Assembly: GCA_041494705.1 (NCBI GenBank)
Contig: JBGQBI010000002.1
Span: 390,001 to 422,000, forward strand
DNA: 32,000 bases
From: Candidatus Methanoperedens sp.
Lineage (GTDB): Archaea > Halobacteriota > Methanosarcinia > Methanosarcinales > Methanoperedenaceae
Reading direction: 5' to 3'
The notes under the pieces were generated by a model that was given only the letters and a program-made list of their open reading frames with translations, was not told the DNA's origin and searched no databases. Below, piece after piece: positions 1,977 to 30,740 of this stretch; positions within the stretch are counted from its first letter, which is position 1; every line of letters begins with the position of its first letter. A program made the position numbers and the translations under genes.

Positions 1977-2031
1977 GTTTTATTAGATATGAACACACGC
2001 AACAACACAAAGATGGATTTAGCGTGATATT

Positions 2032-2271
2032 ATGGCAGAAAAAACAACAGTTCGACCAAAGATCCAGGATTTAAAAATAGGAGATGTTCTGCATGTCGGA
2101 ACAGAGGAAAAAGGGGAAATTTTTAAAGTAACAAAACTGGGTGAAAATGCTTTCATATACGACCAGGGTGGCGACCTTAAGGAATATGGAAGGGCGGTAA
2201 TGGCGAAAAACATCTTCGGTTTTGCAGAGAAGTACAAGGCGGTTTACTGGATAACGCATGACGAAGAGTGA
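2032..2271 (+). CDS. Small hypothetical protein (79 aa)
   Basis: This is the only sizeable ORF in the gap, and its amino-acid composition is protein-like. I recognise no motif. Confidence 0.45.
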   Translation: MAEKTTVRPKIQDLKIGDVLHVGTEEKGEIFKVTKLGENAFIYDQGGDLKEYGRAVMAKNIFGFAEKYKAVYWITHDEE

Positions 2272-2287
2272 ATTATAGAAGATTTGA

Positions 2288-3937
2288 TTAAACCTCGATC
2301 AATAATATTTTCTCGATTAATTCAGAAATTCTGGGAATATCTTTCATCTTCTCAAGAACATTGTTCTTCCCTTCACTATCGCACAGGTTCTTCAAATCCT
2401 TTAGTGTTTTAATCTGATATCCAAGTAATTTTTGGGTCTCTTCAACAGTCCAATTTGAAATCCCAACCGCTCTGATGTCTGAATGTAAATTTAAAATATC
2501 AAAATAATCCGCCTTTTCCTTTGAAATATCACGCGATTTTTTTAAATCTTCCAGAGTAAGGAGCTTGAAGTCTTCAGATTTTGCAAATTCTTTTGCTTTT
2601 GTTTGTTTTTGCTTAAATATGTTAGAAATTTTCGCATTTTCAGTGGCTACTTCCGCTTCCCAATTAATTGAATCAATATCAACATTTGCAAATTCTTTTA
2701 TTGAATAGACTTTAGCTTTATCAGTAAGCAACTTCAATTCAGATGGGGTCAAATTTAAAATTTCTTTTAATCTTTTTATTTCATCACGTTGCTCAATAGC
2801 TTTTTCAAAAATATAGTTAAAATAGTCTTTAGTTATCCCGTTTTGATTTTTTAATGTATCAAAATCTGCGACTGCAAGTTGTTCCACAGTGTCTATATTG
2901 TTGTAAAGATACAAATCATTGGCAACGTCTTCTTCTACACCAAGCCGAACCACAAGTTCGGAATTTTCAATATTGTATTTATCACGTTCTTTAACTTCAT
3001 TTCGTAATTCTTCAGGCAATAATCCCTGAATTGATTTATATAACCAAACCTCAATCGTTTTAGTGAACATACCGGTAAAAAATGAAAAAAACAGAACGAA
3101 CCATAAATTCTGTATTTTAACAGCATCTAACAAAATATAAACTCCCAAAATAGCAATATATGGGGCAATAATGATTCGTCGTATGTAGCCATACACGATA
3201 CTTTTCTTCTTATATACATGTATTTTTTGAGAAAAAATCTCTTCGATGCTCATCAGCAAATAGGAAAGAACTCCAATTAGCGCAGCTACTGGTATATATA
3301 CAGGAAAGCGAAGATTATCCGATAATACGATATACTCTTTTTGTTTGTACAACAAATATATAATCACAGGAATCCATGAAAATAATGACAACAAGAGTAA
3401 AGAATTTTTTATGTGTTTTTCATACCACGTGGGTGATACATGGTTATTATAAAATCTATAAGCCCAGAATATAAACATTAAAAGTCCCAATAATGCCGGT
3501 ACAAAAATCGGCAAAAATCCAGAGTCTTTCTGGCTTTTTAGCGGACTTAATGTAAACTTTAATTTATTCTCAGTAATAAACGGTGAAATCGTTATGTTTT
3601 TCGATACGGGTTCATAATTTTCAGCTGTAATCTTGAAAGTGTATGTCTGATTTTGCTCGCCTTGGAAAAATGCAGTCCCGTTTTCATTTGAATAAAGGTA
3701 CAAACTGGATGCATTGGACACATTAAAGGAAAAAACCTCGATTGTTGCTTCTTTGACCGGCAAATCATTAGTGCCGTTCACATCGATCTGGATTGCGGGA
3801 TTGGCAATCCCGTAAGTAGGCTGAATGAATAAAGTGAATAAAATTAAAAATATCAGACCTGTATTTAACCACCTCATAATCTTCAGTTTGATAATAATTG
3901 TATATAAAATTATCGACTGTTTAAAGCTATCCATCAC
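2288..3937 (-). CDS. Hypothetical membrane protein: extracellular beta-sandwich (carboxypeptidase-regulatory-like) domain, multi-TM core and a cytoplasmic tail with repeated helix-hairpin-helix-like (DUF4332-like) modules
   Basis: The 549-aa ORF has a signal-like MRWLNTGLIFLILFTLFIQPTYG (alternative start at 3877) and several hydrophobic helices. Its C-terminal modules include LGVEEDVANDLYLYNNIDTVEQLA, LNLTPSELKLLTDKAKVYSIKEFA and VGISNWTVEETQKLLGYQIKTLKDL. The gene is visibly AT-rich compared with its neighbours. Confidence 0.6.
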   Translation of the reverse strand: MMDSFKQSIILYTIIIKLKIMRWLNTGLIFLILFTLFIQPTYGIANPAIQIDVNGTNDLPVKEATIEVFSFNVSNASSLYLYSNENGTAFFQGEQNQTYTFKITAENYEPVSKNITISPFITENKLKFTLSPLKSQKDSGFLPIFVPALLGLLMFIFWAYRFYNNHVSPTWYEKHIKNSLLLLSLFSWIPVIIYLLYKQKEYIVLSDNLRFPVYIPVAALIGVLSYLLMSIEEIFSQKIHVYKKKSIVYGYIRRIIIAPYIAILGVYILLDAVKIQNLWFVLFFSFFTGMFTKTIEVWLYKSIQGLLPEELRNEVKERDKYNIENSELVVRLGVEEDVANDLYLYNNIDTVEQLAVADFDTLKNQNGITKDYFNYIFEKAIEQRDEIKRLKEILNLTPSELKLLTDKAKVYSIKEFANVDIDSINWEAEVATENAKISNIFKQKQTKAKEFAKSEDFKLLTLEDLKKSRDISKEKADYFDILNLHSDIRAVGISNWTVEETQKLLGYQIKTLKDLKNLCDSEGKNNVLEKMKDIPRISELIEKILLIEV

Positions 3938-3999
3938 AAAAAAATCGTGGCGAAATAATTTCGGGATTCTACAATCACAAAAAAATAATAATTCGCGTA

Positions 4000-4074
4000 T
4001 AGCGGGGAATGGATTCGAACCATTGATCTACGGGTTATGAGCCCGTCGGGATATCCTGACTACCCTACCCCGCT
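4000..4074 (-). tRNA. Initiator tRNA-Met (anticodon CAT), archaeal type
   Basis: The reverse complement folds as a cloverleaf: AGCGGGG acceptor pairing with CCCCGCT, anticodon stem-loop ACGGG-CTCATAA-CCCGT, and T arm AATGG-TTCGAAT-CCATT. An A1:U72 pair plus three G:C pairs next to the anticodon loop are initiator hallmarks. CCA is not encoded. Confidence 0.9.
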
Positions 4075-11450: not shown

Positions 11451-12446
11451 ATGAACACGAAAAAAATTCTTGTTTTTTCCCTTATACTGATGCTGACTGC
11501 TTATCCGGTATTTGCAGGAGATGTAAAGCTTAATAGATGGGTGTTGAACGTGACTTTGACCGATGCAGGGTCAGTCGATGAGGTTATACAAACCGAGATT
11601 GAGAATGGAGGTTCTACACCTCTTGAAGGTTTTTCTTTTGTGATTCCTGCTACCAGGGTAACAATAACAAATGACCAAATAATGAGTATTCCGGCAACAG
11701 GCCAGGAAGTATCGCAACAGACAGTTCCTGACGGCGTTAAGATAATCATCAAATTCAACAAGCCGCTTGAAGCGGGAAAGAAATGGGACGGGCGCATCAG
11801 TCTTACGGCAGAAAACTGGGCGGTAAAAGAAGGTTCGGATTATTCTATCAGCATACCCGTCAAAGCGCCCCAGGCAATTGTCGCAGGGAAGGATACTGAA
11901 ATATCAGTGTCCGGGGATGCAGAAATCAGAAGCCAGGTTTTCCTTCCAAAAGGCGTAACTGCCACTTCAGTTGAAGTAAAATCCAGCGCCCCGAAGCCAT
12001 ATAAAAAACTGATGCAATTCGATCATGTTGTTCTCACATGGTTTCAATTGAATAACGGCGATGTTATCAGCATCAAAGGTTCATTTTCAGATGTATTAAT
12101 GAAAATAGTCGATAATGATGCAAAATACAGGGAATTAAGTACCAGAATTAAGAATGCAAAAGAACAGGGTTTGAATGTTTCAGATGCGCAAACTCATCTC
12201 AATAATGCAGAAGATTACAATAACAACCAGGCGCTCCAGTCTTTCTGGAAAAGTGACAACACGGTTGCATTGCAGTATGTGGGATATGCTAATGATGAAT
12301 TGAAACTTGCAGAAAATAGTCTTTCATCACCTGAGAAAACAACTCTCCCGCAAGAGACAGCGCAGGGTGAAAAAACCCCGGGGTTTGAAATAGCTGGATT
12401 AATTCTCGTATTGCTGATTTCCAGAGTGGTTAAAAGGAAAAAATAG
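11451..12446 (+). CDS. Secreted cell-surface protein with a PGF-CTERM archaeosortase sorting signal
   Basis: Signal peptide MNTKKILVFSLILMLTAYPVFAG. The C-terminus TPGFEIAGLILVLLISRVVKRKK is PGF plus a hydrophobic helix plus a basic tail. Confidence 0.7.
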   Translation: MNTKKILVFSLILMLTAYPVFAGDVKLNRWVLNVTLTDAGSVDEVIQTEIENGGSTPLEGFSFVIPATRVTITNDQIMSIPATGQEVSQQTVPDGVKIIIKFNKPLEAGKKWDGRISLTAENWAVKEGSDYSISIPVKAPQAIVAGKDTEISVSGDAEIRSQVFLPKGVTATSVEVKSSAPKPYKKLMQFDHVVLTWFQLNNGDVISIKGSFSDVLMKIVDNDAKYRELSTRIKNAKEQGLNVSDAQTHLNNAEDYNNNQALQSFWKSDNTVALQYVGYANDELKLAENSLSSPEKTTLPQETAQGEKTPGFEIAGLILVLLISRVVKRKK

Positions 12447-12459: not shown

Positions 12460-12864
12460 TTATCGCAGATATAAAGCAAGTCCTTTCTCCAATCCTTCCA
12501 TGGTCGCATATGGGACTGTGGTCACGCGCCGGTTACCCAGCACCATCGCAGAAACACTCGCCTCCTCCTTATAGACGCAAACCACCCGCTTCCCCTTCGA
12601 CACCGCGTAGCATATCTCATAGCCCACGCCGATGGAGGGCACGGTAATATCTGCCACAAGGCAGTCGCACTCATCTATGAAGCCTATATCGCTTAAAAAA
12701 ATCTCCTCGTCTGTGCGTTTCGCTTCGGCCTCCTCAAGCTTCGAAGAAGCAACATGCTCACTCACCACATCATGTCCCGACTTTTTCAGGAGCGCTATTA
12801 TCTGTTTGTACTCAAACAACATGCTGCGCCCGCCTCTTATTGAACCTGCAAAGAATACTTTCAT
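12460..12864 (-). CDS. 2'-deoxynucleoside 5'-phosphate N-hydrolase (DNPH1/Rcl) / nucleoside 2-deoxyribosyltransferase-like protein
   Basis: MKVFFAGSIRGGR and PSIGVGYE motifs match the DNPH1/Rcl family. Its start overlaps the upstream gene's stop by 4 nt. Confidence 0.75.
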   Translation of the reverse strand: MKVFFAGSIRGGRSMLFEYKQIIALLKKSGHDVVSEHVASSKLEEAEAKRTDEEIFLSDIGFIDECDCLVADITVPSIGVGYEICYAVSKGKRVVCVYKEEASVSAMVLGNRRVTTVPYATMEGLEKGLALYLR

Positions 12865-14021
12865 TTGACCATCCGTATCAGATTCTCTTTGCCTTTCCTT
12901 ATCTTGATGATCAGTCCTTCTTCTTTCATAGCGGCGAGAACCATGCTTATCTTGGATTTCGAGAGTCTGCTCTCCTTAACTATATCTGATTGATATGCCT
13001 GCCCACCCGACCTCAGGAGGTACTGTTCTATCATTTCCTCATACTCTAAATCCTCCTCAGCACGAGGTGTCCGGGCTGTTTCATCTAATTTTTTCAATCT
13101 TTGCTCTCTTGCAGCCTTTTCAAGCTCTTCCACGCTTTGCGTCCCGAATTCTTTGTGCAGCAACTGCACAAGATTATTCCATACCTCAGGGGTTTTTAGT
13201 ATCTCCTTAAGCTCCCCATGCTCGTGCTTTAACCCGTTTCCTTTTTCGGTTAAATTAGCGCTACGTCTTCCTCTCAAGAATACCACTAAAGCCACGGATA
13301 CAAAAACAACTATGGAAATTACTATCAAAGGCCACATGAATTTTCCCGGCGAGAGAAACGTCGTTACCCCGGAACGTGAGAGCACAAGAGCCGGCTCTCC
13401 TATACTGAAGTTGCGGTACAGCGTCCCACCCCATATCAATCTGCTCCCATCGCGTTGGTCATAACTGGGAGATACGCTCATGACATCATAACCATCAGGG
13501 ATATTGATTATAAGTACGCTGGCAGGGGAAAGTACAATCCCCTCCGAGAAAGCATCCCCTACAAAAATACTATCAGAATCCCTGCGAGAAAAATTCTTCC
13601 ACAGGAAGGTGTAACGGATAATGCCGAAATCACCTGAAAGAGTACTTAGCGTGTCGAAAGAGATATTGACATCTGCGATTTTCATCGAGCGTTTTGAGAA
13701 ATTTTGAGATGAACGCTGGAACAGGTCAATCGTATCGTTAAACTCCGGGACGTCCCTGTAACGTGAGATATTCTTTCCTGTCTTTATGGCTGCTTCCCAT
13801 TCATTTAGTTCAGGCTTGGTAAGAGGCAGGCGTTTTTCCATTGTCCAAAATGCATTTCCGCTTTCGTTAACATTAACCGTGATGATGGATTCGGCTCCTG
13901 CTACATGCATCCCAAGTATTAAAAAAATGCATAAAAGAAACAGTTTTCTCATCGATACGAAATTATGTGCATCAGTATTAAGACTGCTGCTCTTGTTATG
14001 TTCATCAAGAGGTATCTCCAA
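12861..14021 (-). CDS. Membrane-tethered winged-helix regulator (COG2512-like): extracellular domain, one TM helix, cytoplasmic coiled region and a C-terminal wHTH
   Basis: Signal-like MRKLFLLCIFLILGMHVAGA (probable start at 13952), TM helix WPLIVISIVVFVSVALVVFL, and C-terminal SDIVKESRLSKSKISMVLAAMKEEGLIIKIRKGKEN (MarR/TrmB-like wHTH). Confidence 0.65.
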   Translation of the reverse strand: MEIPLDEHNKSSSLNTDAHNFVSMRKLFLLCIFLILGMHVAGAESIITVNVNESGNAFWTMEKRLPLTKPELNEWEAAIKTGKNISRYRDVPEFNDTIDLFQRSSQNFSKRSMKIADVNISFDTLSTLSGDFGIIRYTFLWKNFSRRDSDSIFVGDAFSEGIVLSPASVLIINIPDGYDVMSVSPSYDQRDGSRLIWGGTLYRNFSIGEPALVLSRSGVTTFLSPGKFMWPLIVISIVVFVSVALVVFLRGRRSANLTEKGNGLKHEHGELKEILKTPEVWNNLVQLLHKEFGTQSVEELEKAAREQRLKKLDETARTPRAEEDLEYEEMIEQYLLRSGGQAYQSDIVKESRLSKSKISMVLAAMKEEGLIIKIRKGKENLIRMVK

Positions 14022-14081: not shown

Positions 14082-15842
14082 TTAGTCCTTTTTGTTCTTG
14101 TCGGTTGTACCTTTGTGCACTTGTGTGTTGGTGTGTTCTTGTGTATTGGTATGCTCTTGTGTATTGTTGTGCACTTGTATGTTGGTATGCTCATGCGTAT
14201 TGGTGTGCTCATGAGTATTGGTATGCTCTTGTGTGTTGTTGTGCTCTTGCTCGTTCTCTTCTTGCTCTTCTTGCTCATGCTTGCCATTGTGGCCTACAGG
14301 CAGTGCATTTACTGATACGATTGCACGTCCGTTGATTGTACCGTTTGCTGCGGTGATAGTGGTAGTTCCTGCTGATAATGCAGTGAACTTGCCTGTGGCA
14401 TCAATGGTACCAACGGTCGTGTTGCTGCTCACCCATGTAAATATTGCCGAGATGATATGGCCCATCTGGTCAAATGCAGTGGCTGTAAATGTCTGTGTGC
14501 CGTTCACTTTTAACGACTTTTTTGGGGGTGAGACCGTTATGGTTTTCAGTACCGATGTTCCCGGAGCTGTTACAGTTGCGCCTGCAATTCCGATGACAGT
14601 TCCACCAGTTCCATTTGTCGCGATTATTGTTGTCATTCCTGCTTCAAGTGCTGTAAACACGCCTGTTGCAGAATCGATTGTTCCAACTGTGGTATTGCTG
14701 CTACTCCAAACTGTTGCCGGGCTAATCGATATGGAAACGCCATTCTGGTCAAAACCTGCTGCCGTAAAGCTCTGTGTTTCGCCCACTACCTTCGATGCCG
14801 TGAAGGGTGAGACCGTTATGGTTGTCAGTACTGGTGTCGGTGCTGGCGCTGATACAGTTACGCTTGCCGTTCCGCTGACAGTTCCACCAGTTCCATTGGT
14901 GGCGGTTATAGTTGTAGTTCCTGCTGCAAGTGCATTGAACATGCCTGTGGTTGGATTGATTGTTCCAACTGTGGTATTGCTGCTGCTCCAAACCACTGCC
15001 GGGCTAATCGCTATGGTAGCACCGAACTGGTCAAAACCTGCTGCTGTGAAGGTCTGACTTCCACCTAAAGTCAGCAACGCTGTTGCTGGTGTGACTGTTA
15101 TTGTGGTCAGAACCGGCACAGGCGCTGGCGCTGATACTGTTGCAGTTGCAGTTCCGCTGACAGTTCCACTCGTTCCATTCTTGGCGGTTATAGTTGTCGT
15201 TCCTGCTGCAAGTGCATTGAATACACCTGTGGTTGGATTGATTGTTCCAACTGTGGTATTGCTGCTGCTCCAAACTGTTGCCGGGCTAATCGATATGGAA
15301 CCGCCGGTCTGGTTAAAACCTGCTGCCGTAAAGCTCTGTGTTTCGCCCACTAATTTCGATGCTGATGTGGGTGAAACCGTTATGGTTGTCAGTACCGGTG
15401 TCGGCGCTGCTGCCTGTACTGTAATCGTAATATCTTTGAAGTTGGTTATTGGACCACCTGATACTGTGGAAGCATAAACCGTAACTTTATATGAACCTGC
15501 AGCCGAAGGTGCCTTTAAAGTTGTTGTTCCTGTTCCGCTACCGCTAACAATAACTCCACCTGAAGGAATGCCAAAAAGCGCATTATCATTTGCTACTGAC
15601 GGCCATTTTGCTGTCGCGCTCGACGGGCTCCAGGTTACAGTTACAACAAAACTCTCTCCCGGGGCTACTGTCGTTTTTGGGGTTGTTGCGGTGATGCTAA
15701 CACTCGACGATATGGAATGGCAGTCCGTACACACCATGTCATAATTTGCGTGTGCCGATACTCCCGGCACTGCTATTAGAGCCATTACTAAAAATAACAG
15801 CCCAATTTTCAATTTATTGTTCATTTGTTTTTTCCTATTCAT
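14082..15842 (-). CDS. Secreted monoheme c-type cytochrome-like protein with four Big_2 (Ig-like) repeats and a His-rich repetitive C-terminal tail
   Basis: The ORF is open to 15899, but a GGAG motif lies 8 nt upstream of the ATG at 15842 (MNRKKQMNNKLKIGLLFLVMALIAVPGVSAHA signal peptide). A single CTDCH heme-binding motif (15717-15731) sits right after the signal. Four ~94-aa repeats carry the Big_2-like pattern L..I.V.P...L..G.TQ.FTA.....G........W.SSN..V.TI...G...A...G...I.A. The tail is HEQEEQEENEQEHNNTQEHTNTHEHTNTHEHTNIQVHNNTQEHTNTQEHTNTQVH. Confidence 0.8.
   Translation of the reverse strand: MNRKKQMNNKLKIGLLFLVMALIAVPGVSAHANYDMVCTDCHSISSSVSITATTPKTTVAPGESFVVTVTWSPSSATAKWPSVANDNALFGIPSGGVIVSGSGTGTTTLKAPSAAGSYKVTVYASTVSGGPITNFKDITITVQAAAPTPVLTTITVSPTSASKLVGETQSFTAAGFNQTGGSISISPATVWSSSNTTVGTINPTTGVFNALAAGTTTITAKNGTSGTVSGTATATVSAPAPVPVLTTITVTPATALLTLGGSQTFTAAGFDQFGATIAISPAVVWSSSNTTVGTINPTTGMFNALAAGTTTITATNGTGGTVSGTASVTVSAPAPTPVLTTITVSPFTASKVVGETQSFTAAGFDQNGVSISISPATVWSSSNTTVGTIDSATGVFTALEAGMTTIIATNGTGGTVIGIAGATVTAPGTSVLKTITVSPPKKSLKVNGTQTFTATAFDQMGHIISAIFTWVSSNTTVGTIDATGKFTALSAGTTTITAANGTINGRAIVSVNALPVGHNGKHEQEEQEENEQEHNNTQEHTNTHEHTNTHEHTNIQVHNNTQEHTNTQEHTNTQVHKGTTDKNKKD
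14112..14246 (-). repeat. Imperfect 18-nt tandem repeat (plus-strand unit ttgtgtattggtatgctc) encoding (E-H-T-N-T-Q/H)n
   Basis: About 7 consecutive degenerate 18-nt units are visible directly in the DNA. They are in frame with the cytochrome-like CDS. Confidence 0.8.
14301..15407 (-). repeat. Four in-frame tandem repeats of ~282 bp encoding the Big_2 domains
   Basis: The string gtggtattgctgct(a/g)ctccaaac...gccgggctaatcg recurs at about 14692, 14974 and 15256, a period of 282 nt. The antisense ORFs 14749-14991 and 15031-15273 are near-identical and offset by 282 nt. Confidence 0.85.
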
Positions 15843-16264
15843 TCTTTTTCTCCTATCTGCCTGCTTGAGATGCAATAAGGCATCTTTGCAGAATACCAAT
15901 AGTATAACAATTGTTAATTTAACTATACTGAGAGTTTTTCATGGTTTTTGAGTTTTTACGGTCTATAAAAGCTTATTTTAGTTTTTTATCGTTCAATAAA
16001 CTATTTTTTTAAATTAAAAGTTGAAGTAATAACCCAAATCTTAAAATACCACCCCCAAGTACTCAGATGTTGAAGAGATAGGGAAATGATACTGGATGAT
16101 AGAAATAAAACCAAGCATAGAATCTGATTGGAAAAGTTGGCAAAAGCCGATAGAATAGAATCGTTGACGGGATATAGGAGGAAACTACTTCGACTTCTGC
16201 CTAATCATATTACGTCAATTGACGATTTAAAATTTACGGGTATTTATTCCCTGGGAAATTGTGT

Positions 16265-19783: not shown

Positions 19784-19801
19784 AATTAGGTATACCTAAT
19801 T
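19784..19801. promoter_or_regulatory. 18-bp perfect palindrome aattaggtatacctaatt, a candidate DtxR-family operator in the iron-operon promoter
   Basis: The site is 20-37 nt upstream of the FTR1 start codon. Its outer arms TTAGGT/ACCTAA equal the arms of the classical DtxR/IdeR box TTAGGTTAGCCTAACCTAA. A TTAGCCTA element (19813-19820) and a TATA-like ttatata (minus strand, about 19819-19826) lie just upstream. Confidence 0.55.
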
Positions 19802-19865
19802 TGTAGGTTTTGTTAGCCTATATAATTTTCGGTGAGTATTATAAGCTATAAGCCACAAACATGGC

Positions 19866-20102
19866 TCATCGCACACTCCGCAGCTTATGACTGACCTGTT
19901 TTCCCAGTTCCGTCAAAGCATATTTCCCACCTGAAAGTGCTAAAAGCTTTTTCCCCACCAGTTCTTCAATACTCTTATCCGCCCCCACCATCCGGGCTGT
20001 TTTAGCTATGGTAGCGCTGTCCAAGGGTCCCTTTGAATCCAGTACAGCAAGAATCTTGCTTGCTTTTTGGTTACTTGCAACAAAACCGATTAATTCTTCC
20101 AT
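19866..20102 (-). CDS. Small winged-helix protein (78 aa), hypothetical regulator
   Basis: KILAVLDSKGPLDSATIAKTARM...LVGKKLLALSGGKYALTELG resembles a MarR/TrmB-like wHTH. The gene is divergent from the SRP RNA. Confidence 0.5.
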   Translation of the reverse strand: MEELIGFVASNQKASKILAVLDSKGPLDSATIAKTARMVGADKSIEELVGKKLLALSGGKYALTELGKQVSHKLRSVR

Positions 20103-20160: not shown

Positions 20161-20477
20161 AGCGGCGGGCTAGCCCGGGTAATTCGGCGTTACCTGTAAC
20201 CCGAAACCGTCGATAGCGGGGGGCGAAGCCAGAGGAAGAAGTTTTGACTGTTGCCCGGCCCGCAGGTTCTACTGTGAAACCCCGTCCTGTGGGGCTAGTG
20301 TCGGTGCAAGGGCTTTCCTGAAGGAAGGTTTTTGTATCTTAATTGCGGACAAAGGTCTAGGCCCGGAAGGGAGCAAACCGCCCGTGAACAACTAACGCTC
20401 ACGGGGGCGCGGGGCGGAGGCGAGTTTGCGGTCAACCGGACAGCGGAAGGGACTACGACCCGAGGCATGCCCGCTAC
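20161..20477 (+). ncRNA. Archaeal signal recognition particle RNA (7S RNA)
   Basis: The 5' domain GGGCTAGCCCGGG..TTCGGCG..CCTGTAACCCGAAACCG.CGATA fits the archaeal SRP Alu-domain pattern. The helix-8 signature AGGCCCGGAAGGGAGCAA is at about 20359-20376. The 5' GCGGGC pairs with the 3' GCCCGC. Length is ~317 nt, it ends in a TTTT run, and a TATA-like aactttatt lies ~25 nt upstream. Confidence 0.85.
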
Positions 20478-20494: not shown

Positions 20495-20514
20495 AAGGAT
20501 TTTAATTTATCCTT
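20495..20514. terminator. Short hairpin (aaggat-N8-atcctt) between the convergent SRP RNA and cytochrome gene
   Basis: A 6-bp inverted repeat is visible in the sequence and overlaps the cytochrome stop codon. Archaeal termination usually relies on T-runs, so its function is uncertain. Confidence 0.3.
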
Positions 20515-23500
20515 AACCTCGCTTTGAAATAATGAGATAAACAACCATTAAAGAGATTATTATAGAACCTAAATCCAAATCAGCGGCATTCTTCTTGTTC
20601 TGGCCGGCACCCTGTGCATCAGAAACTATAGTAAAGTTTACTGGATAAAATTCACCCCACGTGTTATTTCTCTCCATTGAATGGATATAAATTATATGCG
20701 TCCCGGTTGAAATACCGCTTGTATTGATTTCAGTAGCTAACTGTTCAACTTGCGAGTCAAAAACACCGTCAACGGCTTTAAGAGGTATTCCATATCCAGG
20801 GCTGCCTTTTGTATCTATGAAGTATTCAGCAGATCTTATTTTCATCCCGATACCGCCTGCTGCTGTCGCTGTCAATTTCACCGATTCTGTGCTATTGATA
20901 ACAGTCCGGGATAAATTAGCTTCACTTATGGAAGGCAGCATCTGGGGTCTAATAATCTCATGTGACCTTGGCATGTGACATAATTCGCAGGCAGAAAAAT
21001 ATCCATGAGCTTCGTCGCTGAGATTTACTGCTCCATACGTCGGTTTATCCTGGTATGTATGACATGATGTGCAGTTCCTTGGCATAACGTATGTGGGTGA
21101 ATGCGTATTTGGTTCGGTTCCATCTGTATGGCATGCCAGGCATGCTTTATCAATGCTATCTGACATATAGGCATTATCAGGCGCTGCTGCATTCAATATT
21201 GAATGTTTTCCAAGCCGTGATGAAATAGCATTGACCTGAGAAATTCTAAGGTTCTTTGAGGAATCATGACATCTCACACAATCAGCCCAATCCCTGGGAT
21301 TATCAAACAGGTTTGGAGTATGCAGGCTTGCCGGGATTTTTCCAAGTGTGAACCTGTCGCCGGGATGAAGCCAGCTGCTATTATACCCGAATTGAGTGGT
21401 GTTAGCGGTAGTCTTCAATACCTGTGTCGACAGGAGTTGCGAATCCTGAAGTACGATAAAGTCTTTCTGCCCCAGGAAAACGCTTGAAACGTTTGTAGTG
21501 AAAATGGTCATATTGGTGTCAGTATATTCTTTATACCTGATATCGGTATAATAATCGAACACCGAGCCGGCAGTGACCACATCATCTTCGACGGTTTTAT
21601 TATCGATCCTGAATTCCAGCCATGCCTGCCTGTCCGTACTGGAGGCTTTGAATTTCAAAGAATAATTGTCAGCCATCTGCCACGTTTGTCCATCTTCTAA
21701 ATATTTCTGATAAGTAGGGACTGAAATGAACTTATCCATAATACCGAGCTGGTCAAACACATAATCCTCATCGTTGAAGTAAATCTTACTCTTATTTTCT
21801 AATTTATGATCGAGTAACACTCCGGTATAATAGATTATATCCCGCCCCTCATCTTTTGCTTCTCTATCAATGACCTTATATCGTTCTTTTTCCGTTGAAT
21901 ACCGGTACATGTGACAGGCAAAGCAAGCGCTGTCCTTGCTTTCCTTTTCAGTGTGGATCTTTCGCGGCCTGTATGCCTCGAATATGATAAAACTTTCTTT
22001 AACGCCAGTAAAGATGGAGTTTATGCGCACCGTAATTGCAGGTGTCTTGAACGTTGCATTATCGATTGTGACCTCTCTCTCGTAAGTATATGGGTTATCC
22101 TGGCCAACCATTGCCTGGTCCACGATAACATCTTTATTCAGGATCTGGATAAAGGCGTCCCCTCTTAAAGCTGAAATTTCTATTAATTTCAATGAGTAAC
22201 CTTCACCAAGATATACGGTCTGCCCTTGGAAGAGAGTAATATTGTTATCTTCTCTATTTACCTCGATAGTGCCTACCCTGTCCTTATTGATCAGCGTGGC
22301 ATTTCCCCAGTCCTTACTGTTATCCTTATCGAGATGGCAATAAATGCAATTGAAAGAATCGACTAAGTTATCTTTTGACCCATAATGCGATACGAGAGCA
22401 AGATTTGAATTGTTATCTTTTGTTACTAAACTGTTTATATGGCAGTTCTGGCATTGCTCTGTTGTTGTTATATTGTAATTTGTAACGTTATTTGGATTAC
22501 TATTCAGGCTTGCGTTCTGGAAGTGCGAATAAATCATTGTCTCGTTGTATTGTGACTGTGAAATCGAGTGGCAGTCATCATTATTGCAGTTATTTGGGGC
22601 ATTGTAATTAGAGGGATGTCTGTCTGTCGGTTGTGCGCTCTCACTTCCATCGCCATCCCCGTGGCACGCCCAGCAGCGTGAATTATTTGCGCTCGTAGAA
22701 TTTGAATTGTTGAAATTCAGGTTGCGATGTACCGAGTCAGTGTTATTGAGTGAGGAAAAACTTACCTCCTTTTGTGCAATTCCCCCGGTATCATGGCAAT
22801 TAATACAATTAACTCCACCTACAGCCAAATTATGCATGAATCCTGTAATACTCGTACTTGAGTTCACGCTCCCGTGGCAGTTCCTGCATGTGCTATCATT
22901 GTAATCGGAAAAACCGCTATGATTGTAATAAGCAGGATTACTCTTGTTTGCTCCGAAGCTTGCATTTCCCGTAATCTCAGGCGGGACTAACAACGGTTCA
23001 TTTGGAAAGTTAAAGGTACTGACTGTATCGTTAGAGGTATTGGCTCCGCTTGAATAGCCCTGCCAGTGGCATGAAGCACACCAAGAAGTGCTTGTTGAGA
23101 TTGTAGAGTTTACCGTGTTGCTGCCTTGTAACAGCGAAGGTCTGCCTAAAGCAGTGGCATTGTGCAGGGTTATGCCGTGGCAGTAGAGGCATGACGAATT
23201 TTGTGCGCTGCCATCTGTTCCGTTTATCCAGTAACCCGGAGTTTCATTCCATTTTCTGCCGGAGTTTATATCAGCGCCGTGACTCACGGGTTTTGGAATC
23301 TGAGGGGGGTCACTTCCTGAGTATGCGCCTGCCCGTGGCTTTAACAACAAAGCGTCTAAAAATGTGGAATTCTGGTGGCAGTTTGTGCAGTTGCCCCTGT
23401 CCGCAGAAGTGCTGCCGTTTATGTAAGTGGCATTCCGGGCAAACACCTTAATCATGTGCGCATCCTGGCTGTGACATACAGTGCAGTTCACGCTGTTGTT

Positions 23501-24982
23501 GTGGCGCTGGTATGCATTATGGCAGGCAGTGCACTGGGTGTACTCTGTAACATTATTCGTATTCGCAGGCAGAGGGTCGGGTTTTGTGACGTTGTGCGCG
23601 GGTCCATGACATACAACGCATGGAACTGATGCAATTAAACTGGAATTCGTACCGTTGTGTGCAGTAAGTGGGGTTCCAGTACTATAATTATAAGAATATA
23701 CCGAAATATTCACTCCCGTGACATTATTATCAGGTCCTGGTGTTAAATTAGCCAAGGTGCTTATATTTGTGAGGTTGTTATTGTATATAGGATGGCAATC
23801 GTAACAGCTCGGCATCTTTGGAATTCCCGCTCCACCGCCACCCGTTTGATCCTTTATGTAAGTCCAGTTACCATGGCAGAAATCACATGATCTATTCTTA
23901 TGAACATCATTTGTATAACCATATGCATCTGAATTGTTTGCCGAATATCCAGGGTGGCAAAAATAGCATCCTCTTCCTGAACTGGAATGGCTGTTAAATA
24001 AGTGTGCCACTTGAGCGAATGAATTGTTTTTGCCGTAACCCCCCGTATAGGGGGAACGCGGATAATTAAGATTAGAACCATTAAGGGTAATAGCAGTTAT
24101 CCTATGACAATATCCACGAGTACTGCTACAAGTAATAGCTGCACCAGTAGTAGAATTCCTACCGCTAGTCATATTTCCCCCACCTAGTATGCTCATATTC
24201 GTACTACCCCTCACGGCTGAATTGCTTGTATTATAGGCAGTTATAGTCCAATTGCCATAGTCAGTATCATTGACAATAGTAAAATCACCGCTCGCATTAT
24301 AGGAAACACTTGCCAAACCATTCTGTTGGGTTATGTTAAATAGAGTCGTTTTTAATGTTCCATTTGCATAAATCTCAAAAGTAATGTTTGTTCCGTTAAC
24401 CGGCAATCCATTATCTAAGAGCAAAGCAAAAGCAGTGAAATTTCCACTGAGATTAAAAGTGTAGAGTGATGTCTTTTGCCAGGGAGCGTAAATTGAGTAT
24501 CTGTTGGTTGCGACTCGTATGATCTCCGCGCCGCCTGTTGCTGAAACACCAAATGGTGAAAAAGAAGTTGTGGTCGCTGTGAGTATATTGTTTGCAGCGT
24601 CCACCGTTGTAGCCAGCGGCTCCCACGCGGCGCCATTCCAGTGGTAAATTACCAGCCCGTTCTCATCCATTCCTTTAATTTCTGCATCGGTGTAACGTAT
24701 CGTTACTGTTGCAGGAGAATGGGAATTTCTGCTTGCGCCGATTTCCATGAATTTTATAGCTTTTCCCGGAAGCGGAACCGGGACGGGGTTGTTTTTCCCA
24801 TAATCCTCAATGATAATCTCTCCGCCGCTTGCATTTCTGGTCTGATTCTCTTTTGTAGAGTTAACAGAATCATTGCATGGATGGCAGTCTGAATAGCTCG
24901 CCCCCCTTAGCCAGGGGATGAAAGCCACTACTATTACTAAAAACAAAAATAAAATTATAATAAATTGCTTTGGTATTTGCAT
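20513..24982 (-). CDS. Giant multiheme c-type cytochrome (1489 aa) with an inserted S-layer duplication-like domain and a C-terminal TM anchor
   Basis: N-terminal signal/TM (FIIILFLFLVIVVAFIPWL). A PGF-pre-PGF-like domain spans residues ~55-150 (LVIYHWNGAAWEPLATTVDAANNILTATTTSFSPFGV). There are 19 canonical CxxCH motifs: 14 between residues 339 and 883, one at 1020-1024, and four between 1235 and 1336. A CNNDDCH (CX4CH) lies at 799-805. A heme-poor beta-rich region at ~900-1215 resembles the Methanosarcina S-layer DUF1608 pattern. The protein ends in an Ig-like domain and the TM helix IIISLMVVYLII-SKRG. Confidence 0.9.
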   Translation of the reverse strand: MQIPKQFIIILFLFLVIVVAFIPWLRGASYSDCHPCNDSVNSTKENQTRNASGGEIIIEDYGKNNPVPVPLPGKAIKFMEIGASRNSHSPATVTIRYTDAEIKGMDENGLVIYHWNGAAWEPLATTVDAANNILTATTTSFSPFGVSATGGAEIIRVATNRYSIYAPWQKTSLYTFNLSGNFTAFALLLDNGLPVNGTNITFEIYANGTLKTTLFNITQQNGLASVSYNASGDFTIVNDTDYGNWTITAYNTSNSAVRGSTNMSILGGGNMTSGRNSTTGAAITCSSTRGYCHRITAITLNGSNLNYPRSPYTGGYGKNNSFAQVAHLFNSHSSSGRGCYFCHPGYSANNSDAYGYTNDVHKNRSCDFCHGNWTYIKDQTGGGGAGIPKMPSCYDCHPIYNNNLTNISTLANLTPGPDNNVTGVNISVYSYNYSTGTPLTAHNGTNSSLIASVPCVVCHGPAHNVTKPDPLPANTNNVTEYTQCTACHNAYQRHNNSVNCTVCHSQDAHMIKVFARNATYINGSTSADRGNCTNCHQNSTFLDALLLKPRAGAYSGSDPPQIPKPVSHGADINSGRKWNETPGYWINGTDGSAQNSSCLYCHGITLHNATALGRPSLLQGSNTVNSTISTSTSWCASCHWQGYSSGANTSNDTVSTFNFPNEPLLVPPEITGNASFGANKSNPAYYNHSGFSDYNDSTCRNCHGSVNSSTSITGFMHNLAVGGVNCINCHDTGGIAQKEVSFSSLNNTDSVHRNLNFNNSNSTSANNSRCWACHGDGDGSESAQPTDRHPSNYNAPNNCNNDDCHSISQSQYNETMIYSHFQNASLNSNPNNVTNYNITTTEQCQNCHINSLVTKDNNSNLALVSHYGSKDNLVDSFNCIYCHLDKDNSKDWGNATLINKDRVGTIEVNREDNNITLFQGQTVYLGEGYSLKLIEISALRGDAFIQILNKDVIVDQAMVGQDNPYTYEREVTIDNATFKTPAITVRINSIFTGVKESFIIFEAYRPRKIHTEKESKDSACFACHMYRYSTEKERYKVIDREAKDEGRDIIYYTGVLLDHKLENKSKIYFNDEDYVFDQLGIMDKFISVPTYQKYLEDGQTWQMADNYSLKFKASSTDRQAWLEFRIDNKTVEDDVVTAGSVFDYYTDIRYKEYTDTNMTIFTTNVSSVFLGQKDFIVLQDSQLLSTQVLKTTANTTQFGYNSSWLHPGDRFTLGKIPASLHTPNLFDNPRDWADCVRCHDSSKNLRISQVNAISSRLGKHSILNAAAPDNAYMSDSIDKACLACHTDGTEPNTHSPTYVMPRNCTSCHTYQDKPTYGAVNLSDEAHGYFSACELCHMPRSHEIIRPQMLPSISEANLSRTVINSTESVKLTATAAGGIGMKIRSAEYFIDTKGSPGYGIPLKAVDGVFDSQVEQLATEINTSGISTGTHIIYIHSMERNNTWGEFYPVNFTIVSDAQGAGQNKKNAADLDLGSIIISLMVVYLIISKRG

Positions 24983-26164: not shown

Positions 26165-27286
<1,122 letters not shown>

Positions 27287-28291
27287 TTACCTGAATACCA
27301 GCATTGCATCGCCGAAACTGTAAAACCTGTATGATTGTGATATAGCCTCATTATAAGCGACCATTAACCGCTCCCTGCCTGCAAATGCGCTCACCAGCAT
27401 CAAAAGGGTGGATTTGGGGAGGTGGAAGTTAGTGATTATAGCATCGATATTCGATTTGAAACCGTAAGGCGGATAGATAAAAAGCTGGCTGAATCCATCA
27501 TGCGCTGCAATTTTTCCGTCCACGCATGAACTTTCAAGCGCTTTTACAGTGGTTGTCCCGGCGGCTATGAGCTTACCTTTTGTTTTATTGATTATTTCTG
27601 CATTATCTGAGCTGACTGAAATATATTCAGGTTCCATGTTGTGGTCTTCGATGTTCGCAGCCTTAACAGGTGTGAACGTGCCAAGACCCACATGAAGAGT
27701 GACATACGCAATACTTACACCTTTTTCTTTTATCCTGTCCAGCAGATGTTCTGTGAAATGCAGACCCGCAGTCGGCGCAGCAATTGAGCCTTTTTCCCTG
27801 GAATAGATTGTCTGGTATCGGTTCTTATCATCGAGTTTTTTCTTGATATACGGCGGGAGCGGTGCCTCGCCGATTTTTTCGAGAATATCGTTCAGGTTGC
27901 CGTTGCTGTTAAAATCAACAAGATACCTGCTGGTGTTGGAGCTCTTTCTGACTTCAAGGACTGTCGCTTCAATCTCGCCGAAATGAAGTTTTGTGCCTTC
28001 ATGGATATTTTTGCCCTGTATGAGACACTCGTATCCTGCATTGCTCTTTGAGATAACAAGCGCCTCCACGTGCCCGCCTGTACTCTTTTTGCCCTGGAGT
28101 TTTGCAGGGATGACGCGGGAATCATTTAGCACAAGGGTATCCCCTTCTTCAAAATAACCAACAATATCAGAAAAACGGCGGTGCTCGATATTTTGTCCAA
28201 GCACCAATAATCTCGATGAGTCCCTGGGTTCTATGGGCGACTGGGCAATCAGTTCTTTCGGGAGATTATAATCGAAATCAGAGAGTTTCAT
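27287..28291 (-). CDS. queA: S-adenosylmethionine:tRNA ribosyltransferase-isomerase
   Basis: MKLSDFDYNLPKELIAQSPIEPRDSSRLLVL, SRVIPAKL, and the TAGLHFT and AAGTT motifs are typical of QueA. There are 6 nt between its stop codon and the tgt start. Confidence 0.9.
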   Translation of the reverse strand: MKLSDFDYNLPKELIAQSPIEPRDSSRLLVLGQNIEHRRFSDIVGYFEEGDTLVLNDSRVIPAKLQGKKSTGGHVEALVISKSNAGYECLIQGKNIHEGTKLHFGEIEATVLEVRKSSNTSRYLVDFNSNGNLNDILEKIGEAPLPPYIKKKLDDKNRYQTIYSREKGSIAAPTAGLHFTEHLLDRIKEKGVSIAYVTLHVGLGTFTPVKAANIEDHNMEPEYISVSSDNAEIINKTKGKLIAAGTTTVKALESSCVDGKIAAHDGFSQLFIYPPYGFKSNIDAIITNFHLPKSTLLMLVSAFAGRERLMVAYNEAISQSYRFYSFGDAMLVFR

Positions 28292-28316: not shown

Positions 28317-29099
28317 TTAAGTAATTTTTCTCAAAATAATCTCATCACCGGGTTTTTTATTAAAAAATTGCGCGGCATTTCCCCGGTTCACCGCAATCTC
28401 AAGAAACCCGTGGCTTCCAATCATTGCAACAGGTTCGCCTTTTCTGCAAAACCCGTATGATTTATGGAATAAAATCCGGACATTCTGGATATCCAGTACA
28501 TCCCCGAATTGGAAATCCACCATATCCGAGGTTATGTTTGTGACAAGATTTCCGAACTGGTCAATGAAGATAATCCTGCCCTGAAGTGAGCCGTCTTTTT
28601 TCAATCCTTTTCCAAAATCAAGGTCCACATAGTCAAAAATCTGTTTCCCCACAACGCTTATGTCCAGCCCTTTTGAGATATGCGCTCCCACAGGCGCAAA
28701 AATATCCCTCCCGTGGAAAGTACTGGAAACCTGTTTTCGAAACAGGTTCGTGTTTGTAATCTCATAAACCTTAAAATAACCAAGGCTTTTCGCTGCAGGT
28801 AACAGGAGGCCATTATTGGGACCTATGAAATAATGGTTTCCGTGAAAATCCGAATCCGCCCTGATTGCAATAGCCCGCCGCTGCGTTCCGACTCCGGGGT
28901 CAACTACTGCAATATGTACCGTATCTGAGGGGAAAGACCTTGCACTTATCATTAATATGAATGCACCGGCGCGTACGTCATGAGCCGGCACAGAATGAGA
29001 GATATCAACAATAGTGGCTGACCTGTTTATTCCATAGATTGCGCCCTTCATGGAGGCGGGATAGACATCCCCGAAATCTGAAAGCAGGGTAATTACCAT
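28317..29099 (-). CDS. SAM hydroxide adenosyltransferase / SAM-dependent chlorinase-fluorinase family (DUF62) protein
   Basis: N-terminal ITLLSDFG...MKGAI and internal VVDPGVGT motifs are characteristic of the PF01887 family. It is the first gene of the four-gene minus-strand operon. Confidence 0.85.
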   Translation of the reverse strand: MVITLLSDFGDVYPASMKGAIYGINRSATIVDISHSVPAHDVRAGAFILMISARSFPSDTVHIAVVDPGVGTQRRAIAIRADSDFHGNHYFIGPNNGLLLPAAKSLGYFKVYEITNTNLFRKQVSSTFHGRDIFAPVGAHISKGLDISVVGKQIFDYVDLDFGKGLKKDGSLQGRIIFIDQFGNLVTNITSDMVDFQFGDVLDIQNVRILFHKSYGFCRKGEPVAMIGSHGFLEIAVNRGNAAQFFNKKPGDEIILRKIT

Positions 29100-29152
29100 A
29101 ATCCAAGAAACATTTAATACCTGTCAAACTATAAAACCCGCTGTCATACCGT

Positions 29153-29226
29153 GGACTCGTGGGGTAGCCAGGATATCCTAGCGGGCTTCGAACCCGCGGA
29201 CCCGCGTTCGAATCGCGGCGAGTCCG
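29153..29226 (+). tRNA. tRNA-Arg (anticodon TCG)
   Basis: Acceptor GGACTCG/CGAGTCC, anticodon arm GCGGG-CTTCGAA-CCCGC, T arm CCGCG-TTCGAAT-CGCGG, discriminator G. A TTTTTT terminator run follows, and a TATA-like actataaaa lies ~20 nt upstream. Confidence 0.9.
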
Positions 29227-30683: not shown

Positions 30684-30740
30684 GTTGATTTATTTAGTAA
30701 ATAGTTTTATAATTATTATTTGGTTCGATGATTTTCTTAT

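What the first reader, a model, noticed from the sequence alone, without database searches (positions are those of the whole stretch)
14082..15842. Unusual secreted protein: one CxxCH heme motif, four Big_2 domains and a His-rich tail
Directly after a signal peptide there is a single CTDCH motif (15717-15731). A ~100-aa beta-rich domain follows, then four ~94-aa Big_2-like repeats, then an acidic/His-rich low-complexity tail. There is no TM or PGF-CTERM anchor. I do not recognise this combination of a monoheme unit on a long Ig-domain stalk with a potential metal-binding tail as a described family. It sits next to iron-uptake genes and near the giant cytochrome, which suggests an extracellular redox or metal-capturing accessory.
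Basis: partly seen in the sequence, partly recalled or inferred. Interest (0 to 1): 0.7.

Follow-up and report, generated by a model that had tools for sequence, protein, structure and literature searches.

The report
Heme-tipped stalk protein of Methanoperedens
This gene encodes a secreted archaeal surface protein. It probably carries a single covalently bound heme in a small Ig-like "cap" at the tip of a four-domain stalk and ends in a charged, histidine-rich tail. It belongs to a sizeable family that no curated database describes and that screens for multi-heme cytochromes skip.

Summary
Window 14082-15842 (-) encodes a 586-aa protein made of five parts:
- a Sec signal peptide
- CTDCH, which holds the protein's only two cysteines
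- a roughly 105-aa beta-sandwich
- four Big_2 domains
- a 70-aa tail of (E/V)HTNTx repeats

There is no membrane anchor.

The heme motif is not chance. A profile of the N-terminal domain finds about 90 protein clusters in Methanoperedens, other archaea and Chloroflexota. In these, Cys, Cys and His are the only invariant residues, and the motif always lies 7 residues after the predicted signal-peptidase site.

Pfam, NCBIfam and PDB have nothing for this cap. Its predicted fold (pLDDT 90) is a generic Ig-like sandwich, not a cytochrome fold.

Family members carry the cap on varied adhesin-type stalks. They end in a TM anchor, a dockerin or a charged tail. Some are fused to class-I cytochrome c or cupredoxin domains.

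In Methanoperedens, at least five other heme modules sit on the same Big_2-plus-tail scaffold, one of them at this very locus.

The link to FeoB/FTR1 is genus-level synteny only, because paralogues lie elsewhere.

Best reading: a surface-displayed monoheme c-type cytochrome acting as a tethered redox relay. Heme binding itself is untested.

The parts
15753..15842 (-). Sec-type signal peptide (residues 1-30, MNRKKQMNNKLKIGLLFLVMALIAVPGVSA). Predicted cleavage is after VSA.
   Evidence: Seen directly in the sequence. In 86 family members the residue 8 positions before the first Cys is Ala in 78, and position -10 is A/V/S/T in 82. That is an AxA site at a fixed distance.
15717..15752 (-). Seven-residue N-terminal arm plus the heme-binding motif (HANYDMV-CTDCH, residues 31-42).
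   Evidence: C38, C41 and H42 are the only invariant columns in 87 sequences. They are the only two Cys in the protein. Cys spacing in the family is 2 in 68 members, 4 in 17, 5 in 4, 6 in 4, and 1 or 3 once each.
15405..15716 (-). Ig-like beta-sandwich 'cap' domain (residues 43-146). It has no curated family.
   Evidence: AlphaFold2 pLDDT 90.2, pTM 0.83. Foldseek against PDB finds only generic Ig-like folds with TM <= 0.57. No Pfam or NCBIfam hit. The profile search gives 242 hits at E <= 1e-3 and 95 at E <= 1e-10.
14295..15395 (-). Stalk of four Big_2 domains (residues 150-243, 244-337, 338-430, 431-516). The protein has 12 N-x-S/T sequons, 10 in the stalk and 2 in the tail.
   Evidence: Pfam PF02368 E 3.2e-39, 4 stretches. 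Repeat boundaries and 56-77% mutual identity. 282-nt tandem repeat. Sequons.
14085..14294 (-). Acidic, His-rich low-complexity tail (residues 517-586). An EQ-rich stretch is followed by about 8 (E/V)HTNT(Q/H) hexapeptides and a terminal HKGTTDKNKKD.
   Evidence: 18-nt tandem repeat, 7.6 copies. Composition. The same HTNT-type tail is found in orthologues P0001, P0003-P0005 and P0007, and on proteins with other heme modules (P0008, P0024, P0013).
15843..16264 (-). Upstream intergenic region of the gene, its likely own promoter and 5' UTR. It includes a conserved 119-nt block (16119-16237) with the palindrome CGTCAATTGACG.
   Evidence: Alignment of four Methanoperedens loci. The block is 92-96% identical, against 91.5% for the FeoB coding sequence. 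No Rfam match.

Best explanation
The gene encodes an exported, probably N-glycosylated, cell-surface protein of a Methanoperedens-like archaeon. Its working part is the N-terminal 'cap', an Ig-like beta-sandwich. A short N-terminal arm on the cap (mature residues 1-12) carries one covalently attached c-type heme on CTDCH.

The four Big_2 domains form a stalk roughly 15 nm long that cannot conduct electrons. The charged His/Glu-rich tail occupies the position that holds a TM helix, a dockerin or a sorting signal in relatives. It is therefore most likely the attachment end, binding the envelope, the matrix or a mineral through charge or bridging metal ions.

The heme head would then be a tethered one-electron carrier. 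It would swing between the cell's S-layer multiheme cytochromes and external acceptors, neighbouring cells or other tethered hemes. This would be electron hopping by bounded diffusion, not conduction along the protein.

Shown here:
- the architecture and the export signal
- strict conservation of the heme motif
- membership in a large modular family
- fusion of the cap to known redox domains in other members

Inferred:
- that heme is actually attached
- that the tail is the anchor
- that the head relays electrons
For: - **Motif conservation.** Cys, Cys and His are the only invariant residues in 87 family members. They are the protein's only cysteines.
- **Fixed position.** The motif always lies 7 residues after an AxA signal-peptidase site, so it is exported to the side where c-type heme attachment occurs.
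- **Family size.** About 90 clusters at 50% identity share this N-terminal arrangement.
- **Fusion and adjacency to redox proteins.** P0172 and L012 carry 3-4 Cytochrome_CBB3 domains (E 1.4e-36). P0186 carries two plastocyanin-type domains (E 1.3e-18). In a Dehalococcoidales genome the cap gene is next to a NapC/c7-type multiheme cytochrome gene.
- **Other heme modules on the same scaffold.** In Methanoperedens relatives the Big_2 stalk plus charged tail also carries at least five other N-terminal heme modules, including diheme ones (Paired_CXXCH E 0.0014). One of these, P0008, sits at exactly this locus in another genome. What these proteins share is a heme motif at the head.
- **C-terminal ends in the family.** These are a TM helix (P0146, P0160, P0167...), a dockerin (P0268, which is cap plus dockerin only; P0156) or charged tails in roughly a third of members. 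This places the cap at the distal tip.
- **Host.** It encodes a 19-CxxCH S-layer cytochrome nearby. Methanoperedens is known for an exceptionally high number of c-type cytochromes (PMC4429474).
Against: - No experiment shows heme on this protein or on any family member.
- The cap does not resemble any solved cytochrome.
- No second His or Met is conserved to act as the sixth ligand.
- Cys spacing stretches to 5-6 residues in 8 members. Two members are aberrant (CSCH, CNSACGH).
- A single heme cannot pass electrons along a Big_2 stalk, so the relay idea depends on flexibility and on partners that are not identified.
- There is no conserved operon partner.
- The role of the tail as anchor is argued only from its position.
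Confidence: 0.45

Rival explanations
1. It is an iron- or metal-acquisition accessory of the adjacent FTR1/FeoAB system. The His/Glu-rich tail would capture Fe(II) or other divalent metals at the cell surface. The heme head would oxidise or reduce iron for the FTR1-type permease, as Fet3 or EfeB/EfeO do for their permeases.
For: - The gene follows FTR1, DtxR-FeoA and FeoB on the same strand.
- This order is kept in at least four other Methanoperedens assemblies, even where the heme module has been exchanged.
- The tail has about 9 Glu-His dyads.
- A conserved palindrome lies upstream.
Against: - The syntenic genomes are about 91% identical in DNA across the whole neighbourhood, so the order carries little information.
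- Paralogues and more distant members lie next to unrelated genes such as thermosome, TtuA, cobalamin synthesis and topoisomerase.
- A roughly 420-nt gap separates the gene from FeoB.
- There is no similarity to P19/FetP, EfeO, EfeB or multicopper oxidases.
- Many family tails are purely acidic and lack His.
Confidence: 0.2
2. It is a surface heme protein whose heme is five-coordinate and binds a small molecule instead of relaying electrons. It could act as a sensor, scavenger or detoxifier (for example of O2, NO, sulfide or peroxide) held away from the membrane.
For: - No conserved distal His or Met exists in the cap, as expected for an open coordination site.
- The single heme sits far from any other redox centre.
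- The fold is beta-rich, as in the ligand-binding cytochromes P460 and c'-beta (my own knowledge of those proteins).
Against: - No output or catalytic domain is attached.
- Fusions in relatives are to electron carriers, namely class-I cytochrome c and cupredoxin.
- Diheme electron-transfer-type modules occupy the same scaffold.
- There is no fold match to P460 or c'-beta.
Confidence: 0.15
3. It is a non-redox adhesin or matrix protein. Here CxxCH would not bind heme but would form a disulfide or a metal site that stabilises a tip domain used for attachment to minerals, partner cells or the S-layer.
For: - The architecture matches fibrillar adhesins, with a tip domain, repeated Ig-like stalk domains and an anchor. 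Stalk types in the family are adhesin-typical: Big_2, SdrD_B, SpaA, cadherin-like, He_PIG.
- The cap has an Ig-like fold with no cytochrome relatives.
- The Cys spacing varies.
Against: - The His directly after the second Cys is invariant in all 87 members. That is the signature of heme c attachment, not of a disulfide.
- Several unrelated heme-motif modules, including paired CXXCH, replace the cap on the same scaffold.
- Some members are fused to cytochrome c and cupredoxin domains.
Confidence: 0.15

Closest known systems
Cytochrome f (petA) of the b6f complex
   Same: - It is a c-type cytochrome whose body is a beta-sandwich, not the usual helical fold.
- Its heme is held by a short N-terminal peptide with CxxCH.
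- The alpha-amino group of mature residue 1 (Tyr-Pro...) is its sixth ligand (established knowledge).
- In the cap family the mature N-terminus lies at a fixed 7 residues before the first Cys. Residue 1 is Phe or Tyr in 39 of 86 members, and residue 2 is Pro in 64 of 86.
   Different: - No detectable sequence or fold homology. No cytochrome f chain is among the best Foldseek matches.
- The arm is 7 residues long, against 20 in cytochrome f.
- There is no TM anchor and no b6f context.
- The target itself starts with His-Ala, not Tyr-Pro.
- One family member (P0129) has an internal cap with no free N-terminus.
Predicted beta-sandwich monoheme cytochromes of Ignicoccus hospitalis (Igni_0759 cluster; Kletzin et al. 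2015, PMC4429474)
   Same: These are archaeal and exported. CxxCH follows directly after the signal peptide (Cys28/Cys31), followed by a beta-sandwich body. The distal ligand is uncertain.
   Different: Homology to that cluster was not tested here. Those proteins have no Big_2 stalk or charged tail, and they too are only predictions.
Membrane-tethered monoheme electron carriers (cytochrome c_y of Rhodobacter, c552 of Paracoccus)
   Same: One heme domain is held on a flexible tether and shuttles electrons between fixed partners by restricted diffusion (my own knowledge). This is the working principle proposed here.
   Different: Those have a class-I helical cytochrome fold, an N-terminal TM anchor and known partners. 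Here the fold is Ig-like, the tether is made of Ig domains plus a disordered tail, and the partners are unknown.
S-layer multiheme cytochromes of ANME/Methanoperedens (such as the 20513-24982 gene)
   Same: Same organism group, exported, c-type heme, and a proposed role in extracellular electron transfer (PMC9012536; PMC10542353).
   Different: Those carry 10 to more than 30 hemes forming a wire, plus S-layer domains and a C-terminal TM helix. This protein has one heme and none of those domains. Screens that require at least 3 CxxCH miss it.
Fibrillar adhesins with Big_2, SdrD_B or cadherin-like stalks
   Same: A functional head at the N-terminal tip, a stalk of repeated Ig-like domains whose number varies between strains, and an attachment module at the C-terminus.
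   Different: The head carries a heme motif. The target's C-terminus is a charged tail, not LPXTG, a TM helix or a dockerin.
Cyc2 fused cytochrome-porin iron oxidase
   Same: A single CxxCH sits immediately after the signal peptide, followed by an all-beta domain (my own knowledge).
   Different: The beta part of Cyc2 is an outer-membrane porin. Here it is a roughly 105-aa soluble Ig-like sandwich in an archaeon that has no outer membrane.

Membership tests
c-type cytochrome (covalent heme via CxxCH) | A Cys-X(n)-Cys-His motif conserved among homologues | tested here: met
c-type cytochrome (covalent heme via CxxCH) | Export to the compartment where heme is attached (signal peptide) | tested here: met
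   The sequence shows a Sec-type signal peptide with an AxA site. No dedicated signal-peptide predictor was available.
c-type cytochrome (covalent heme via CxxCH) | Heme actually bound covalently, with a defined axial ligand set | not testable with these tools
   This needs heme staining, mass spectrometry and spectroscopy. No conserved sixth ligand was found.
c-type cytochrome (covalent heme via CxxCH) | A cytochrome c maturation system in the same genome | not tested
   No ccm genes lie in the 32-kb window. A 19-CxxCH cytochrome is encoded here, and the literature reports many cytochromes c in Methanoperedens (PMC4429474).
Known cytochrome c sequence families (class I, c3/c7, NapC/NirT, paired CXXCH) | A significant match to a curated profile | tested here: not met
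   There is no cytochrome family among the Pfam or NCBIfam hits for the target, or for the cap region of 87 members.
Cytochrome f | Fold similarity of the heme-bearing beta-sandwich | tested here: not met
   Foldseek of a pLDDT-90 model against PDB gave no cytochrome f among the 50 best matches. All matches had E >= 1e-3 and TM <= 0.57.
Cytochrome f | The N-terminal alpha-amino group as axial heme ligand | not testable with these tools
   A fixed 7-residue arm and frequent Phe/Tyr-Pro at mature positions 1-2 are suggestive. P0129 has an internal cap.
Big_2 (PF02368) bacterial Ig-like domain | A Pfam match above the gathering score | tested here: met
   133.2 bits against a cut-off of 22.8, in four stretches.
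PGF-CTERM / archaeosortase substrate or C-terminal TM anchor | A C-terminal PGF motif plus a hydrophobic helix and a basic end | tested here: not met
   The last 70 residues are entirely hydrophilic. The neighbouring ORF 11451-12446 does have such a signal.
FTR1-associated periplasmic partners (P19/FetP, EfeO, EfeB, multicopper ferroxidase) | Homology to one of these families | tested here: not met
   No such Pfam hit was found at E <= 1.
Fibrillar adhesin-like surface protein | A tip domain, a stalk of repeated Ig-like domains of variable number, and a C-terminal attachment module | tested here: inconclusive
   The stalk criterion is met, with 2-5 Big_2 copies among orthologues. Relatives have a TM helix or dockerin at the C-terminus. 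The target has only a charged tail of unproven anchoring function.

The most novel reading that the evidence does not exclude
The cap is a new structural class of c-type cytochrome: an Ig-like sandwich whose heme is clamped by a fixed 7-residue N-terminal arm, possibly with the N-terminal amine as ligand as in cytochrome f. Methanoperedens and some Chloroflexota would display such single or double hemes on interchangeable stalks and anchors, forming a brush of tethered hemes around the cell. That brush would carry electrons between cell-surface multiheme cytochromes and minerals, electrodes or partner cells by bounded diffusion. This layer of extracellular electron transfer has been overlooked because screens count only proteins with three or more heme motifs.
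Probability: 0.3. Interest if true: 0.8.

Novelty: new variant of a known kind. Interest (0 to 1): 0.62.

Why it matters
Methanoperedens oxidises methane while passing electrons to iron, manganese, electrodes or partner organisms. How electrons cross the space around the cell is only partly understood. Published inventories count proteins with at least three heme motifs (PMC10542353), so a large family of one- and two-heme proteins displayed on stalks has gone unexamined.

If the cap binds heme, two things follow. It adds a new fold to the c-type cytochromes. It also points to a modular system of heme head, stalk and anchor that could be tested directly in enrichment cultures or in Methanosarcina.

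If the cap does not bind heme, the strictly conserved Cys-Cys-His at a fixed distance from the mature N-terminus still marks an unknown tip chemistry shared by archaea and Chloroflexota.

Tried and rejected
- **Exact-sequence look-up** of the window protein found nothing.
Both were far fewer than the exhaustive profile search (242 hits). Their low counts say nothing about family size, and they gave little taxonomic information.
- **The search for related loci with the broad alignment** failed because no stretch was conserved enough. A narrower alignment found only three full-length cap loci (L010-L012), plus two partial matches in bacterial MAGs (L013, L014) that were not examined.
- **Cluster look-up** of ten members gave no organism names.
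- **Homology to solved structures** was sought by sequence profile and by fold. Only generic Ig/FN3-type matches appeared, so a relation to cytochrome f, P460/c'-beta, SoxY or CopC-type proteins is not supported.
- **An operon with the giant cytochrome** is rejected, because an SRP RNA gene on the other strand lies between them.
- **A known RNA element** in the conserved upstream block was not found.
- **'Strain-specific repeat noise'** for the tail is rejected, because the same tail type recurs in orthologues and on other heme modules.
- **A Borg or mobile-element origin** is rejected, because the window is syntenic with Methanoperedens chromosomal contigs full of housekeeping genes.
- **Literature searches** found no description of the family.
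Full report
**What is there**

The ORF on the minus strand runs 14082..15899. The ATG at 15842 is preceded by GGAG and matches the starts of the orthologues. This gives a protein of 586 aa.

It begins with a Sec-type signal peptide ending in VSA. CTDCH follows at residues 38-42 (nt 15717-15731), and these are the only two cysteines in the protein.

Residues 43-146 are predicted with high confidence as a 7-8-strand beta-sandwich (pLDDT 79 with 9 sequences; 90.2 and pTM 0.83 with 48 sequences).

Four Big_2 domains follow (Pfam E 3.2e-39). They span residues 150-516 in units of 86-94 aa that are 56-77% identical. The first three form a 282-nt tandem repeat at DNA level.

The last 70 residues hold 12 His, 12 Glu, 12 Asn and 13 Thr. 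An imperfect 18-nt repeat of 7.6 copies encodes them. There is no hydrophobic C-terminal segment, although the neighbouring ORF 11451-12446 ends in a PGF-CTERM-like signal. The protein carries 12 N-x-S/T sequons, 10 in the stalk and 2 in the tail.

**Surroundings**

The window comes from a Methanoperedens-like archaeon. The best protein matches are Candidatus Methanoperedens MAG proteins at 73-77% identity, and the whole neighbourhood is syntenic with such contigs.

On the minus strand the order is:
1. a 1489-aa S-layer cytochrome with 19 CxxCH
2. an archaeal SRP RNA gene on the plus strand (20163-20476)
3. a 78-aa wHTH ORF
4. FTR1
5. a DtxR-FeoA fusion
6. FeoB
7. a roughly 420-nt intergenic region
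8. the target gene
9. a DUF7345/DUF7343 membrane-bound HTH protein

T-runs follow the target's stop codon, and the gene has a long upstream region of its own, so it is probably transcribed alone.

**The heme motif is conserved**

All full-length orthologues keep Cys-X2-Cys-His or Cys-X4-Cys-His at the same place. A profile of the N-terminal domain was searched against 1.84 billion representative proteins. It gave 242 hits at E <= 1e-3 and 95 at E <= 1e-10.

In about 90 of these hits the domain sits directly after a signal peptide. The consensus is xPGQTxAC-X(n)-CH-aYPP, followed by the sandwich.
- In an alignment of 87 members, C38, C41 and H42 are the only invariant columns.
- The spacing between the cysteines is 2 in 68 members, 4 in 17, 5 in 4 and 6 in 4, with single cases of 1 and 3.
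- The residue 8 positions before the first Cys is Ala in 78 of 86, and position -10 is A/V/S/T in 82 of 86. The signal-peptidase site therefore lies at a fixed distance, and the mature protein starts exactly 7 residues before the first Cys. Pro is at mature position 2 in 64 of 86, and Phe or Tyr at position 1 in 39 of 86.

**The cap is not a described family**

- Pfam and NCBIfam give nothing for it in the target.
- Pfam gives nothing for it in any of the 87 members scanned.
- Sequence profiles against PDB give only marginal FN3 or antibody matches (E >= 0.014).
- Foldseek of the pLDDT-90 model returns only generic Ig-like domains: Rib, SoxY, the NBR1 FW domain and macroglobulin domains. All have E >= 1e-3 and TM <= 0.57, and no cytochrome appears.
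- Database names for members are 'Ig-like domain-containing protein', 'YjdB', 'hypothetical' or 'Plastocyanin'.
- I found no paper describing it.
- Published Methanoperedens cytochrome inventories require at least 3 CxxCH (PMC10542353), which excludes it by design.
- The nearest precedent in the literature is a predicted Ignicoccus monoheme protein with CxxCH right after the signal peptide and a beta-sandwich body (PMC4429474).

**The family is modular, which tells us which end is which**

Behind the cap, members carry adhesin-type stalk domains:
- Big_2 in 21 members
- CarboxypepD_reg in 12
- He_PIG, Flg_new_2, SpaA, Big_9, SdrD_B, cadherin-like and PKD in others

Their C-termini fall into three kinds:
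- a hydrophobic anchor (P0146, P0150, P0160, P0161, P0167, P0179, P0200)
- a dockerin (P0156, and P0268, which is cap plus dockerin only)
- a highly charged tail, acidic and often with His or Lys, in roughly a third of members

The cap is therefore the displayed head and the C-terminus is the attachment end. By position, the target's His-rich tail takes the place of an anchor. This step is inference.

**Links to redox proteins**

- P0172, and its relative in a Chloroflexia genome (L012), fuse the cap to 3-4 class-I cytochrome c domains (E 1.4e-36).
- P0186 fuses the cap to two plastocyanin-type domains.
- In a Dehalococcoidales genome (L011) the cap gene is next to a NapC/c7-type multiheme cytochrome gene.
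- Among the 120 best Big_2 matches of the whole protein, about 50 are Methanoperedens-type proteins with the same signal peptide, Big_2 stalk and charged tail but other N-terminal heme modules:
  - a short CxxCH module (YGPGLSCGxCHVDPAGGG)
  - a Cx3CH module (CQADCH)
  - two diheme modules, one matching Paired_CXXCH at E 0.0014
  - a PSCyt1-like module
- One of these, P0008, lies at exactly this locus (FTR1, DtxR-FeoA, FeoB, X, DUF7345) in another genome. Its flanks are about 90% identical in DNA, but the head region is only 54-63% identical.
- Conversely, P0009 and P0085 share one locus and one cap type but have different stalks.

Heads, stalks and tails are therefore exchanged as modules. 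The one constant is a heme motif at the N-terminal end. This is the strongest indirect argument that the motif binds heme.

**The link to iron uptake is weak**

The adjacency to Feo/FTR1 is seen only in genomes about 91% identical across the region. Other family members lie next to a thermosome gene, a PAS sensor, TtuA, a topoisomerase or cobalamin genes. Two paralogues in one assembly (GCA_027460585.1) are at unrelated sites. No partner gene is conserved, and there is no similarity to known FTR1 partners. The iron-uptake reading is kept as a rival at about 0.2.

**How it most likely works**

A single heme cannot send electrons along four Big_2 domains. The head must therefore meet its partners by movement. 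It would act as a tethered one-electron carrier between cell-surface multiheme cytochromes and outside acceptors or other tethered hemes, comparable in principle to the membrane-tethered cytochrome c_y (my own knowledge).

The missing sixth ligand leaves two options open. One is an N-terminal amine ligand as in cytochrome f, which the fixed arm and the frequent Phe/Tyr-Pro start suggest. Against it, the target starts with His-Ala, and P0129 has an internal cap. The other option is an open, ligand-binding heme.

My estimates are:

| Claim | Probability |
|---|---|
| Exported to the surface | about 0.9 |
| Binds heme | about 0.75 |
| Acts as an electron relay | about 0.45 |

**Verdict**

It is one member of a large, uncurated family of putative Ig-like monoheme cytochromes displayed on stalks, and part of a modular head-stalk-tail system expanded in Methanoperedens. 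It is a new variant of known kinds (c-type cytochrome and stalked surface protein), not a categorically new system. Its central claim, covalent heme, still needs an experiment.

Noticed in passing
window 20163-20476 (+): Archaeal SRP RNA gene (RF01857, 208 bits). It lies between the giant S-layer cytochrome gene and the wHTH-FTR1-Feo genes, so the cytochrome is not in one operon with them.
   Followed up: yes
window 16119-16237: A 119-nt intergenic block upstream of the target contains the perfect palindrome CGTCAATTGACG. It is 92-96% identical in four Methanoperedens genomes, at least as conserved as the FeoB coding sequence (91.5%). It has no Rfam match. It may be an operator, possibly for the adjacent DtxR-type regulator, or a small RNA.
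   Followed up: partly
L001:9470-9605, L004:4112-4240 (absent from the window after 16265): A 43-44-aa Cys-rich, zinc-ribbon-like ORF (MKTQCPLCGARFDTKDCQACKVCPRFMRCGLIMCPFCGHEFPGE) follows FeoB directly in two related genomes. It is degenerate in a third and deleted in this window.
   Followed up: partly
window 19800-20100 (-): A 78-aa winged-helix ORF (MEELIGFVASNQKASKILAVLDSKGPLDSATIAKT...) lies just upstream of FTR1. It is also called as a gene in the related loci.
   Followed up: no
window 20513-24982 (-): A 1489-aa cytochrome with 19 CxxCH and one longer-spaced motif, S-layer domains and a C-terminal hydrophobic helix. This is the ANME-type S-layer multiheme cytochrome.
   Followed up: partly
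window 11451-12446 (+): A secreted protein with no Pfam match ends in a PGF-CTERM-like signal (TPGFEIAGLILVLLISRVVKRKK). Archaeosortase substrates therefore exist in this genome.
   Followed up: no
window 12861-14021 (-): The downstream neighbour is a DUF7345 (extracellular) - TM - DUF7343 (wHTH) protein, which looks like a membrane-bound transcription factor. Its adjacency to the target is kept in the syntenic genomes only.
   Followed up: partly
window 2000-4000 and 29000-31000: Two low-GC islands (33% and 29-36%, against about 45% elsewhere) hold ORFs without family matches. A tRNA gene lies at 4000-4074 at the edge of the first island. They may be integrated foreign DNA.
   Followed up: no
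window 26165-28291 (-): Bacterial-type queuosine genes (TGT, E 4.6e-141; QueA, E 2.1e-123) in an archaeal genome, next to a SAM hydroxide adenosyltransferase.
   Followed up: no
L009:2443-4080 and L015:8001-9581: Two cap proteins at the same locus (between PIN-T2SSE and TtuA) in different genomes have the same cap type. One has a Big_2 stalk and the other a cadherin/Big_9 stalk. This shows stalk swapping at a fixed locus.
   Followed up: partly
protein P0129 (metagenome): A family member has a second, internal cap (…MYPYACDFCH…) after a partial first copy. It is either a true tandem duplication or an assembly artefact. If real, it argues against an obligatory N-terminal amine ligand.
   Followed up: no
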